Program-made: the position numbers
Part shown: in pieces, positions 42,201 through 45,200 of the stretch
Position numbering within the stretch: position 1 is the first letter of the stretch
How the letters are laid out: each line of letters opens with the position of its first letter
Assembly: GCF_055900595.2 (NCBI RefSeq)
Contig: NZ_CM148325.1
Length of the DNA stretch: 64,000 bases
Direction: 5' to 3' (one strand)

Positions 42201-45200
42201 AAATAAGGCTTACAGAGAACATGGTAGATAAACGCGAATCCTATACAAAAGAAGACCTTCTTGCCTCTGGTCGCGGTGAACTGTTTGGCGCTAAAGGCCC
42301 GCAATTGCCAGCACCGAACATGCTGATGATGGACCGTGTGGTCAAAATGACCGAAACGGGTGGTAACTTCGACAAAGGGTATGTTGAAGCAGAACTGGAT
42401 ATCAATCCGGATCTGTGGTTCTTCGGATGCCACTTCATTGGCGATCCGGTTATGCCGGGATGCCTGGGCCTGGACGCAATGTGGCAGCTGGTAGGGTTCT
42501 ACCTCGGCTGGCTGGGCGGCGAAGGTAAAGGCCGCGCACTGGGTGTTGGCGAAGTGAAATTCACTGGTCAGGTTCTGCCGACAGCAAAAAAAGTGACCTA
42601 CCGTATTCACTTTAAACGCATTGTTAATCGTCGTCTGATTATGGGTCTGGCAGATGGCGAAGTGCTGGTTGATGGTCGTCTGATCTATACCGCCAGCGAC
42701 CTGAAAGTCGGTCTGTTCCAGGATACGTCTGCCTTCTGATTGAAATCAGACAGAGTATAAATAGGCGAAACCTCCGCAATGCGGAGGTTTCTTTTTAAAG
42801 AGACAGAATCAGGCCATTACTACCCTGTCCGCCATGGCTTCTCGCCAGCCTCCCAGCCATTGTGACCTTTGATTCAGCGTCTGATAGGGACACATTTCTT
42901 TTGAGCGTCCGGCGATGCCGGCCTGATAACCACGTTGATGTGCCCGTTCCAGGCGATCTCGTTTTTGTCTCTTCATGCCTCGTTTCCCTCATACTGGTTT
43001 CTGGTGGAAAAGAAAACAGTGATTACTAAATGTGCAATCACAGTTAAGCAATACCGCGAATCATAACTGCCGTCAATGCGCAAAATTCACGCCACTGTCA
43101 TATTTGTGAGCTACACGGGCATGTCGGTTGTACAAAAAATGTGAAGAGGAACAACTTTTTCCGCACGTTAGAAACAAAAAAACCGCCTCAGGCTACATAC
43201 CGGAGACGGTCATATTTACAAATCTTTATAATTAAGGTAGACGCTTTATCTCTTGCGCAATAGAAGCGGCTTCCTGACTCCAGACACTGGCCAGCACCTT
43301 AACCATCTCATCGTAACCATCCTGAGTTTGCACTCCTTCCAGACGGAACGGACGTTTGATCAGTTGTCCCTGGTGGTTCAACAGCCACTCACCACTGACA
43401 ATGACCTTGCCATCATAGCGACCGTTAAACTCCGTTACGGTAACATTGAGCGTGTCCTGGGCGCTTCCCAGAGGCTGGGAGGCAACCACCCAGCCGGGCA
43501 GTTGCCTGGTCAGGTTGGCAACCAGTGTATTGCGCAACTGTTGATCCAGCGGGCTGGCCCACAAGTTGTTGTTGGCAATCACATACTTCACATCACTGGT
43601 TTGATAAACCACACCATTCCCCGCCAGATAATCGGGAACAGCGACCTGCTCGACCCATAACAGGTGATTACCCTGGCTGGCGGTACTTTGTGTACCGCTC
43701 TGCACCACAGGTAGCTGGTAATAGTTTTTATTGATCTCGCCGGAGCTGCATCCGGCCAGCCACAGTGCCGCAATCGTTACTAGCCACTTTTTCATTGTTT
43801 CGCCCTCTTCGGCTCTGGATCTTTTTTGTCCTTCGCTTCAAATACCAGCGCGTTACTCTTCTCGTTGAGCGTTTTCAGCACCGGCTGCAGTTCACGCAAC
43901 ACCTGATCAAGGCGCTGCATATCCGCCACCATCTTGTTGTAGGCTGCGGAGCCAGGCTGGAAGCCCTGCATACTGCGATTCAACTCACGTAATGTGGACT
44001 GCATATCGGTCGGCAACTGCTGCATCGACTGGCTGGCGAGGATCTTGTTCATGCTATCCAGCGTCGTTTGCAGGTTTTTCATGGTGCGCTGACTTTCAGA
44101 AAGCGTACTGGTCGCCTGCTCAATCATCGGATTCAATGGCAGTTTGTTGATCTTATCCAACGCTTCCATCAGACGCTGCTGGATTTGCGCCAGGCCACCG
44201 CTAACGGTCGGGATAATCTGATAACCATTAAACTCACGAATACCGGTAATAGCAGGGCTATTTGGATAGAAATCGAGATCAACATACAGTGCGCCAGTGA
44301 CCAGATTTCCGGTCTTCAGCGATCCGCGTAAACCACGTTTCAACAATTCGCCAAGGTGCTCAACAACATCCGCATTTTCACCAAGCTGCATTTTCAGCCG
44401 CTCTGGTTCGATACGAATCAGTACCGGAATTCGGTAATCATCGTTAAATGTCTGCCGCATATTCGGCGCAAAGAACGGTACTTTGCTTACGGTACCCAGG
44501 CGAATACCCCGGAATTCTACCGGAGCTCCCGGTTGCAGACCGCGTACCGAATCTTTAAAGAACATCAGATAATCAATGTGATCGGTGTACAACGAATCCT
44601 GAATGCTCTTCTGATCATCATACAAAACGAAAGCTGTTTTCGGTGCCACCGGCTGCCCTAAATCCAGACCTTCCGGCACATCAAAGCTGACACCGCCACT
44701 AAGCAGCGTTGTCAATGAGCCCATCTCCACACGCATTCCCGCTGACGTCAAATCAACCGCAATGCCACTATCTTTCCAGAAGCGAACATTGCTGGTCACC
44801 AGTCGGTCATAAGGTGCATTGATGAACAGTTGATAGCTGATATTGCGTTTTTGCGTATCAAAAGTGCTGGTTTCAACCGAACCTACCCGATAGCCACGGA
44901 ACAGCACCGGATCTCCTGGCGAGAGCTGCCCGGCTTTTTTACTATCGAGAATCACACGGATACCTTTTGCATCAGGCGGGGCCAACGGTGGAGAATCCAG
45001 CAAATCGTATTTATCCATTTTGCTGCCTTTCGCACCTGGTTGCAGTTCGATATATACCCCAGACAGCAGCGTACCCAGACCGCTAATCCCTTCTCGACCA
45101 ATCTGCGGTTTTACCACCCAAAAGACGGTATCTTTATGCAGCAATTTTTCCATACCGGAATTCAGCCGCGCTTTGATTTCAACGTGCGTCAAATCATCAG

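What the first reader, a model, noticed from the sequence alone, without database searches (positions are those of the whole stretch)
42809..42976. rmf (55 aa) lies in a region where the ORF track shows only a spurious out-of-frame ORF
The track lists a 65-aa ORF 42795..42992 (-), but the true gene is in another frame: MKRQKRDRLERAHQRGYQAGIAGRSKEMCPYQTLNQRSQWLGGWREAMADRVVMA. This is a concrete example where the six-frame track is misleading.
Basis: partly seen in the sequence, partly recalled or inferred. Interest (0 to 1): 0.15.

Follow-up and report, generated by a model that had tools for sequence, protein, structure and literature searches.

The report
rmf gene, missed by ORF cut-off
This is the ordinary, well-studied E. 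coli gene rmf, whose 55-residue protein puts ribosomes to sleep in starved cells. It was missing from the ORF list only because it is shorter than the 60-residue cut-off, and a meaningless 65-residue ORF in another frame was listed in its place.

Summary
The observation and the interpretation both hold. Window 42976..42809 (-) translates exactly to the 55-aa sequence quoted. That protein is 55/55 identical to E. coli ribosome modulation factor in solved hibernating-ribosome structures (6H4N, 4V8G). It passes Pfam PF04957 and the NCBIfam Rmf equivalog model. The CDS is 168/168 nt identical to K-12 b0953, and RefSeq genomes annotate rmf at exactly these coordinates, between pqiC and a convergent fabA.

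The 65-aa ORF 42795..42992 (-) is the only ORF of at least 60 aa in that stretch, so a default track hides rmf. This ORF is a by-product. It matches no family and has no Shine-Dalgarno. The most variable sites across species are its first codon positions. It carries internal stops in 41 of 76 distinct enterobacterial sequences.

The full transcript can be placed. A conserved -35/-10 pair precedes the published start site, G at 43041. A hairpin at 43041-43019 starts at the first transcribed base and covaries strongly across 75 Enterobacterales leaders. A U-rich tract predicted to pair with the first Shine-Dalgarno sequence follows, then the CDS, then a terminator shared with fabA. The published 3' end maps to 42764. 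A review already credits a 5'-UTR hairpin with the long half-life of rmf mRNA.

Verdict: already known, low interest.

The parts
42809..42976 (-). rmf coding sequence: 55 codons plus a TGA stop. It encodes ribosome modulation factor.
   Evidence: Translation; Pfam PF04957 and NCBIfam NF011162 above their cut-offs; 55/55 identity to PDB 6H4N_v and 4V8G; 168/168 nt identical to K-12 b0953; the PGAP rmf CDS in NZ_CP027579.1 maps to exactly these coordinates.
42795..42992 (-). Spurious 65-aa ORF in another frame, overlapping the whole of rmf. Its ATG is at 42992-42990, directly abutting SD1.
   Evidence: Listed. No family hit. Internal stops in 41 of 76 distinct orthologous sequences, and the most variable sites fall on its codon position 1. 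No SD: best anti-SD duplex +0.2 kcal/mol.
43071..43076 (-). -35 hexamer TTGACG of the rmf promoter.
   Evidence: TTGAC is invariant in 44 Enterobacteriaceae upstream regions. It lies 17 bp upstream of the -10 hexamer and at the expected distance from the published TSS.
43048..43053 (-). -10 hexamer TATTGC (TATTCG in most relatives).
   Evidence: TA is invariant and TT nearly so. It ends 7 nt before the TSS. The consensus scan missed it because position 6 is not T.
43041..43041 (-). Transcription start site (G).
   Evidence: The genome-wide TSS table of Kim et al. 2012 (PMC3415461, supplementary file 2) gives the rmf TSS with 493 reads, a 5' UTR of 65 nt, and an upstream sequence ending ...GGTATTGCTTAACTG. 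The window is identical to K-12 across 43154-42763. PMC6134199 quotes -58 instead.
43019..43041 (-). 5'-terminal stem-loop of the rmf mRNA: GUGAUUGC-ACAUUUA-GUAAUCAC, 8 bp, starting at transcript base +1.
   Evidence: Seen, folded. On 75 distinct Enterobacterales leaders, 92% of cells are paired against 20-66% in slid registers; 66 double-change cells against 22+/-4.9 in shuffles (0/500); 6 of 8 pairs show compensatory changes. RNAalifold independently finds 7 of the 8 pairs. A review attributes the long half-life of rmf mRNA to a 5'-UTR hairpin (PMC6060826 citing Aiso 2005).
43006..43018 (-). Nearly invariant U-rich tract UGUUUUCUUUUCC, predicted to pair with SD1.
   Evidence: Conservation. 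The MFE fold pairs it with GAGGGAAACG. Pairing is 94% across 64 leaders, but slid registers give 70-83% and only one pair has a double change, so the support is weak.
42986..42990 (-). SD1 (GAGGG), the distal Shine-Dalgarno sequence.
   Evidence: The block ATGAGGGAAACGAGGCATG is invariant in Enterobacteriaceae. SD1 and SD2 were described and mutated in work on the polyamine modulon (PMC7177335).
42978..42981 (-). SD2 (GAGG), the proximal Shine-Dalgarno sequence.
   Evidence: Invariant; PMC7177335; best anti-SD duplex -6.1 kcal/mol in the 20 nt before the rmf ATG.
42767..42791 (.). Bidirectional terminator hairpin shared by the convergent rmf and fabA genes: GAAACCUCCGC-AUU-GCGGAGGUUUC, 11 bp.
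   Evidence: Terminator scan on both strands; folded. Term-seq 3' ends flank it on both strands: rmf at K-12 1015927(+) = window 42764, and fabA at 1015897(-) = window 42794 (PMC7815308 supplement).
42764..43041 (-). The complete monocistronic rmf transcript, 278 nt.
   Evidence: TSS plus the primary 3' end. pqiC has its own terminator upstream. The whole mRNA folds with z = -5.2 against shuffles.

Best explanation
Window 42976..42809 (-) is the rmf gene of Escherichia coli. It encodes the 55-residue basic protein ribosome modulation factor. In starved or stationary-phase cells this protein binds the 30S subunit next to the anti-Shine-Dalgarno sequence and pairs 70S ribosomes into inactive 90S dimers, which HPF then matures into 100S 'hibernating' ribosomes. 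The gene is a monocistronic 278-nt unit. It has a sigma70-type promoter (-35 TTGACG, 17 bp, -10 TATTGC) and starts at G43041. A stem-loop begins at the very first transcribed base; the most likely role is to protect the mRNA from 5'-end-dependent decay and so give it its long half-life. A U-rich tract follows and probably masks the distal SD, which would make it the polyamine-responsive element. The CDS comes next, then a hairpin terminator shared with the convergent fabA. The 65-aa ORF in another frame is a chance by-product of rmf's sequence. It was listed only because it exceeds the 60-aa cut-off while rmf does not. Shown here: identity, reading frame, gene boundaries, synteny, hairpin covariation, and coincidence of the hairpin with the published TSS. 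Taken from the literature: ribosome dimerisation, ppGpp dependence, mRNA half-life, SD1/SD2. Inferred: that the covarying hairpin is the stabiliser, and that the U-tract masks SD1.
For: Exact translation. Pfam RMF 79.6 bits against 27.9. NCBIfam equivalog 92.1 bits against 40. 55/55 identity to the RMF chains of 6H4N, 6H58, 9IOT and 4V8G. Present in 5425 of 5426 complete E. coli genomes and annotated rmf between pqiC and fabA. CDS and flanks 43154-42763 are identical to K-12. In 76 distinct orthologous CDS the entropy by rmf codon position is 0.37/0.20/1.05. pqiC lies upstream in 75 of 100 loci and a convergent fabA downstream in 92 of 103. Promoter and leader conservation. Hairpin covariation. 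TSS at the first hairpin base. 3' end just past the terminator. Function and regulation from PMC10746276, PMC8778775, PMC6060826 and PMC7177335.
Against: Nothing contradicts the gene identity. On the leader there are four caveats. PMC6134199 places the promoter or TSS at -58 rather than -65. I could not read the primary paper on mRNA stability (Aiso 2005, PMC1064039), so it is not verified that 'the 5'-UTR hairpin' of the review is this exact hairpin. The hairpin plus U-tract also matches a terminator-like pattern. Comparative support for the U-tract/SD1 stem is weak.
Confidence: 0.98

Rival explanations
1. The 65-aa ORF 42795..42992 (-) is a real protein-coding gene, either instead of rmf or as an overlapping gene in a second frame.
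For: It is an intact ATG-initiated ORF, longer than rmf. It lies inside the rmf transcript. Its ATG is conserved in 70 of 76 distinct enterobacterial sequences.
Against: No Pfam or NCBIfam hit at E<=1. Internal stops in 41 of 76 sequences, including the close relatives Citrobacter and Enterobacter. The highest variability falls on its first codon position. No SD before its ATG, +0.2 kcal/mol. The conserved ATG sits in an invariant block that holds the two rmf SD sequences, which explains its conservation.
Confidence: 0.01
2. The 5' hairpin plus U-tract (43041-43006) acts mainly as an early intrinsic terminator (attenuator) or as an Hfq-binding module that gates rmf expression, rather than as a passive 5' stabiliser.
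For: It matches the terminator-like pattern of a stem followed by a U-run. The U-tract is nearly invariant. rmf mRNA abundance depends on Hfq in Y. pestis (PMC3672283).
Against: No 3' end in the leader is among the passages returned for rmf from the Term-seq supplements, which list the terminator end and an ORF-internal end. The stem is AU-rich (3 G-C pairs of 8, about -9 kcal/mol) and the U-run is interrupted by C. The U-tract has an alternative explanation as the partner of SD1. A hairpin starting at +1 is the classic arrangement of a 5' stabiliser (established knowledge from the ompA 5' UTR).
Confidence: 0.1
3. The rmf copy in this window is inactive or its start codon is mis-assigned.
For: None found.
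Against: CDS, SDs, promoter, TSS region and terminator stem (43154-42763) are base-for-base identical to K-12. The N-terminus MKRQKRD is conserved in all 118 complete loci and is the N-terminus of the solved protein chain.
Confidence: 0.01

Closest known systems
E. coli K-12 rmf (b0953), ribosome modulation factor; PDB 6H4N chain v and 4V8G
   Same: Identical protein (55/55) and identical CDS (168/168 nt). Identical promoter-proximal region, leader and terminator stem. Same neighbours: pqiC upstream, convergent fabA downstream.
   Different: Nothing inside 43154-42763. A few substitutions in the distal pqiC-rmf spacer (43211, 43194, 43173, 43155) and just past the terminator (42762, 42759, 42743, 42742).
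Vibrio parahaemolyticus Rmf (PDB 2JRM) and other gammaproteobacterial Rmf proteins
   Same: Same family, E=4e-19 over residues 1-50. Same MKRQKRD...GYQAG...CPY...W(L)GGWR core in all loci recovered. The convergent fabA neighbour is kept even in Colwellia, Photobacterium and Zobellella.
   Different: Longer and divergent C-termini, no pqiC upstream, and a different leader sequence outside Enterobacterales.
Rmf/CrpP-fold proteins of ICEs and phages (NCBIfam NF041886, NF041887, NF033696)
   Same: Shared fold-level family: Rmf_CrpP_fam 51.1 bits, above its cut-off of 28.
   Different: The window protein is below the cut-offs of the CrpP and phage Rmf-like models (19.8 against 55; 24.1 against 40) and above the Rmf equivalog cut-off. 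It is chromosomal Rmf, not CrpP.
5'-terminal stabiliser stem-loops of long-lived E. coli mRNAs (ompA 5' UTR type)
   Same: A stem-loop that begins at the first transcribed base, in an mRNA reported to have a 24-120 min half-life attributed to a 5'-UTR hairpin.
   Different: The causal link was not tested here. The rmf hairpin is followed directly by a U-tract that probably pairs with the SD. The comparison with ompA rests on my own knowledge, not on a tool result.

Membership tests
Ribosome modulation factor (Rmf; Pfam PF04957 / NCBIfam NF011162) | Matches the curated family models above their cut-offs over the full length | tested here: met
   PF04957: 79.6 bits against 27.9, residues 1-51 on profile positions 1-52 of 53. 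NF011162 equivalog: 92.1 bits against 40, profile 1-47 of 47.
Ribosome modulation factor (Rmf; Pfam PF04957 / NCBIfam NF011162) | Sequence identity to the experimentally characterised ribosome-bound protein | tested here: met
   55/55 identical to the 'Ribosome modulation factor' chains of 6H4N, 6H58, 9IOT and 4V8G.
Ribosome modulation factor (Rmf; Pfam PF04957 / NCBIfam NF011162) | Small (~55 aa), strongly basic protein | tested here: met
   55 aa with 9 Arg and 3 Lys against 2 Asp and 3 Glu, read directly from the translation.
Ribosome modulation factor (Rmf; Pfam PF04957 / NCBIfam NF011162) | Purifying selection in the rmf reading frame across species | tested here: met
   Entropy by codon position 0.37/0.20/1.05. 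Differences from the window by position: 486/325/1354 over 76 distinct CDS.
Ribosome modulation factor (Rmf; Pfam PF04957 / NCBIfam NF011162) | Conserved chromosomal context: pqiABC upstream on the same strand, fabA convergent downstream | tested here: met
   RefSeq annotation. 75 of 100 loci have pqiC upstream and 92 of 103 have a convergent fabA downstream.
Ribosome modulation factor (Rmf; Pfam PF04957 / NCBIfam NF011162) | Dimerises 70S ribosomes; induced in stationary phase in a ppGpp-dependent way | not testable with these tools
   Literature only (PMC10746276; PMC8778775). Applies by identity of the whole locus to K-12.
5'-terminal mRNA stabiliser hairpin | Stem-loop begins at or within a few nt of the transcript's 5' end | tested here: met
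   The published TSS (5' UTR 65 nt) is G43041, the first paired base of the hairpin.
5'-terminal mRNA stabiliser hairpin | Structure, not sequence, is conserved (compensatory changes) | tested here: met
   6 of 8 pairs have double changes; 92% paired; 0 of 500 shuffles reach the observed covariation score. Independent RNAalifold prediction.
5'-terminal mRNA stabiliser hairpin | Removing the hairpin shortens mRNA half-life | not testable with these tools
   A review statement cites Aiso 2005. The primary paper is not held.
Genuine protein-coding gene (claim for the 65-aa ORF) | ORF stays open in related species and evolves under its own frame's constraint | tested here: not met
   Stops in 41 of 76 sequences; the most variable sites are its codon position 1.
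Genuine protein-coding gene (claim for the 65-aa ORF) | Translation-initiation signal, or homologues in family libraries | tested here: not met
   Anti-SD duplex +0.2 kcal/mol. No Pfam or NCBIfam hit at E<=1.

The most novel reading that the evidence does not exclude
The rmf mRNA may carry post-transcriptional control elements beyond the known stabilising hairpin and SD1/SD2. Three observations are compatible with this. First, the invariant U-tract after the +1 hairpin could be an Hfq-binding or early-termination switch. Second, the near-absence of synonymous change at codons 2-3 and 42-51 (including conserved rare codons AGA3, GGA42, CGA45 and AGG51, and a small UGGC-GAGAA-GCCA hairpin) could mark an undescribed regulatory site inside the ORF. 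Third, a published ORF-internal 3' end lies 44 nt into rmf. None of these readings is excluded by my evidence, and none is shown.
Probability: 0.1. Interest if true: 0.3.

Novelty: already known. Interest (0 to 1): 0.06.

Why it matters
Biologically this adds nothing new: rmf is one of the best-characterised small genes of E. coli. It has solved ribosome-bound structures and a mapped promoter, TSS, SD elements and terminator.

The practical lesson is about method, and it is already familiar. An ORF track with a 60-aa floor omits real small genes and can show a longer decoy ORF in another frame over the same DNA. Small-protein loci therefore need homology or codon-periodicity checks. The same gene was once missed in Y. 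pestis annotation and was first found as an 'sRNA' (PMC3672283).

A minor by-product of this work is clean comparative evidence, from 75 Enterobacterales leaders, that the hairpin at the exact 5' end of rmf mRNA is conserved as a structure.

Tried and rejected
- **Rfam:** an E-value-mode scan of 41500-44500 found no family for the rmf leader. It gave only sub-threshold hits: GlmZ_SraJ 25.6 bits against 60 at 43177-43359(-), OmrA-B and Leu_leader on the terminator. I treat these as chance matches driven by terminator hairpins.
- **Promoter scan:** the consensus scan found no promoter because the -10 hexamer TATTGC lacks T at position 6. The promoter was placed from conservation and the published TSS.
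- **Within-E. coli variation:** useless for deciding the frame, since the CDS is identical to K-12. I therefore used one DNA-pattern scan of species-representative genomes.
- **Primary paper:** Aiso 2005 (PMC1064039) is not held.
- **Literature searches:** one search failed on syntax and one was too unspecific.
- **Y. pestis RACE coordinates:** the rmf/Ysr173 coordinates could not be recovered from the main text.
- **U-tract/SD1 stem:** MAFFT alignment A2 puts the CUUUUCC and CUUUCC variants in different registers. I counted pairs with explicit anchors instead. The result was only weakly discriminating, so this stem is reported as predicted, not proven.
- **Attenuator reading:** checked against Term-seq tables. 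No leader 3' end is among the rmf entries returned, though very short RNAs may escape such libraries.
- **Not used:** structure prediction and large protein-database searches, because a solved structure with an identical sequence already exists.

Full report
**1. Observation.**
The ORF list at a 20-aa floor shows both this 55-aa ORF (42809..42976 -) and a 65-aa ORF (42795..42992 -). The 65-aa ORF's ATG lies 16 nt further upstream, so it is in a different frame. At the default floor of 60 aa the 65-aa ORF is the only ORF reported between 42750 and 43230. The description of the track is therefore accurate, and the cause of the omission is simply the length threshold.

**2. Identity.**
- The 55-aa product matches Pfam PF04957 (RMF) at 79.6 bits against a gathering score of 27.9, E=1.7e-22, over the whole profile.
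- It matches the NCBIfam Rmf equivalog NF011162 at 92.1 bits against 40.
- It stays below the cut-offs of the related CrpP and phage Rmf-like models.
- It is 55/55 identical to the 'ribosome modulation factor' chains of the E. coli hibernating-ribosome structures 6H4N, 6H58 and 9IOT and of 4V8G.
- The surrounding 701 bp is found in 5425 of 5426 complete E. coli genomes, with rmf, pqiC and fabA annotated under the match.
- In the best hit, the PGAP rmf CDS maps to exactly window 42976..42809, and the gene order is pqiA-pqiB-pqiC-rmf, then convergent fabA, ycbZ and matP.
- Against K-12 MG1655 the CDS is 168/168 nt identical. The whole stretch 43154-42763 has no difference at all; substitutions occur only further out.

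**3. Is the 65-aa ORF spurious?**
It has no Pfam or NCBIfam hit even at E<=1. The ORF is also present in K-12, so within-species data cannot decide the matter. I ran one degenerate DNA-pattern scan of the species-representative genome collection, using the back-translated Rmf core. It returned 120 loci, and all 118 complete ones encode an MKRQKRD... Rmf homologue.

The 76 distinct ungapped 168-nt CDS give these results:

| Measure | rmf codon position 1 | position 2 | position 3 |
|---|---|---|---|
| Column entropy | 0.37 | 0.20 | 1.05 |
| Differences from the window | 486 | 325 | 1354 |

This is the signature of selection on the rmf frame. The most variable sites are first codon positions of the other frame. 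That frame contains at least one internal stop in 41 of the 76 sequences, including Citrobacter and Enterobacter.

The alternative ATG (42992-42990) has no Shine-Dalgarno: the best duplex with the anti-SD is +0.2 kcal/mol, against -6.1 kcal/mol for the 20 nt before the rmf ATG. That ATG is conserved in 70 of 76 sequences. However, it sits in an invariant block, ATGAGGGAAACGAGGCATG, which holds the two experimentally studied rmf SD sequences (SD1 and SD2; PMC7177335). This accounts for its conservation.

**4. Context.**
pqiC lies upstream on the same strand in 75 of 100 loci with enough flank. fabA lies downstream and convergent in 92 of 103, and this holds well beyond Enterobacterales. pqiC ends with its own hairpin plus U7 terminator at 43211-43181 (z = -4.0), so rmf is monocistronic.

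**5. Transcript anatomy.**
*Promoter and start site.* An alignment of 44 enterobacterial upstream regions shows a conserved -35 TTGACG (43076-43071), a 17-bp spacer, a -10 TATTGC/TATTCG (43053-43048), and conserved blocks further upstream. The genome-wide TSS table of Kim et al. 2012 lists the rmf TSS with 493 reads, a 65-nt 5' UTR and an upstream sequence ending ...GGTATTGCTTAACTG (PMC3415461, supplementary file 2). In the window that start is G43041. PMC6134199 instead quotes a single RpoD promoter at -58 within the 256-bp pqiC-rmf spacer. That is a 7-nt discrepancy. The -10 position fits -65.

*5' hairpin.* G43041 is the first base of an 8-bp hairpin, 43041-43019, which the terminator scan had flagged. 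Across 75 distinct Enterobacterales leaders this hairpin is conserved as a structure rather than as a sequence:
- 92% of cells are paired, against 20-66% in slid registers.
- 66 cells carry changes on both sides, against 22+/-4.9 in shuffles (0 of 500 reach the observed value).
- 6 of 8 pairs show compensatory changes.
- RNAalifold independently recovers 7 of the 8 pairs.

[quoted passage not shown] 2005 (PMC6060826). The primary paper is not held. The element is therefore already known in substance. What I add is the covariation and the exact coincidence with the TSS.

*U-tract and SD1.* Directly after the hairpin comes a nearly invariant U-rich tract (43018-43006). In the MFE folds it pairs with GAGGGAAACG, that is with SD1. 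This agrees with the published picture of SD1 and SD2 sitting in a structured, polyamine-responsive initiation region. Comparative support is weak: pairing is 94% but slid registers give 70-83%, and only one pair has a true double change.

*3' end.* Term-seq places the primary rmf 3' end at K-12 1015927(+), which is window 42764. It places the fabA 3' end at 1015897(-), which is window 42794. Both flank the 11-bp hairpin 42767-42791, which therefore serves as a bidirectional terminator. The mRNA is 278 nt and folds far better than shuffled controls (z = -5.2).

**6. Mechanism.**
[quoted passage not shown] Expression starts at entry into stationary phase, depends mainly on ppGpp and does not depend on RpoS (PMC8778775). 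The promoter binds many transcription factors (PMC6134199). Translation is modulated by polyamines through SD1 and SD2. YhgF binds the mRNA (PMC10201417), and its level is Hfq-dependent in Y. pestis. These statements apply here by identity of the whole locus to K-12. They were not tested here.

**7. Rivals.**
- *A real 65-aa gene.* Rejected; see section 3.
- *An inactive rmf or a wrong start codon.* Rejected, because the locus is identical to K-12 and the N-terminus is conserved.
- *The +1 hairpin plus U-tract as an attenuator or Hfq module.* Not excluded. No leader 3' end appears among the rmf entries returned from the Term-seq tables, the stem is AU-rich, and the U-tract has another plausible partner.

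**8. Novelty and score.**
The gene, protein, structure, promoter, TSS, SD elements, stabilising hairpin and terminator are all described already. The point about method, that a length floor hides small genes while showing a decoy ORF, is real but familiar. rmf itself was once unannotated in Y. pestis KIM and was found as an 'sRNA'. Interest is low.

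Noticed in passing
window 42853-42824 (rmf codons 42-51) and 42973-42968 (codons 2-3): Synonymous variation across 78 distinct enterobacterial rmf CDS is almost absent at K2 AAG (77/78), R3 AGA (78/78), G42 GGA (68/78), R45 CGA (70/78), A47 GCC (75/78) and R51 AGG (74/78). 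Most other 4- and 6-fold sites show 1.2-2.2 bits. Six of the nine Arg codons are AGA, AGG, CGA or CGG. That is about P=0.005 if such codons make up ~22% of E. coli Arg codons; the usage figure is from my own knowledge. RNAalifold places a 4-bp hairpin UGGC-GAGAA-GCCA on codons 44-48, which would explain A47 only. The cause is not resolved.
   Followed up: partly
window 42932 (K-12 1015759, + strand of K-12): The Term-seq supplement of Adams et al. 2021 lists an ORF-internal 3' end 44 nt into rmf, in addition to the terminator 3' end. Its origin, whether processing, pausing or premature termination, was not examined.
   Followed up: no
window 42764-42794: The published 3' ends of the convergent rmf (42764) and fabA (42794) mRNAs lie on opposite sides of the shared hairpin 42767-42791. 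The two transcripts are therefore complementary over 31 nt.
   Followed up: partly
window 43177-43359 (-): Weak Rfam match to GlmZ_SraJ: 25.6 bits against a gathering score of 60, E=0.0015 in a 3-kb search. It spans the 3' end of pqiC and its terminator hairpin 43211-43181 plus U7. It does not reach threshold in the whole-window scan and is probably chance.
   Followed up: partly
window 43095-43147 (-): Upstream of the -35 hexamer there are further conserved blocks: TAGCTCACAAATATGACA at about 43112-43095, GGCGTGAATTTTGCGCA abutting the -35, and TTGTACAAATGA at about 43134-43123. They are presumably binding sites for transcription factors reported to act on the rmf promoter. They were not assigned to specific factors here.
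   Followed up: no
window 7724-8146 (-), 26967-27054 (+), 53772-53845 (-), 58296-58374 (-): Rfam gathering-level hits elsewhere in the window: a cspA-type thermoregulator, tRNA-Ser(tga), the PyrD leader, and naRNA4. These are ordinary E. coli features.
   Followed up: no
window 42600-43300: Only 17 of 5425 E. coli genomes are at least 99% identical over this 701-bp stretch; the rest fall at 95-99%. All differences from K-12 lie outside 43154-42763. Four megablast places of this region fall on records typed as plasmids; these were not inspected.
   Followed up: no
L035, L036, L038, L111 (Erwinia-type loci), leader and start region: These leaders lack the upstream ATG (GAAGAGGGG instead of ATGAGGG) and have a tandem ATGATG start (MMKRQKRD). 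They also change the U-tract to UGAUUUC together with GGGGAUUG on the SD side, which is the only double change supporting the U-tract/SD1 stem.
   Followed up: partly
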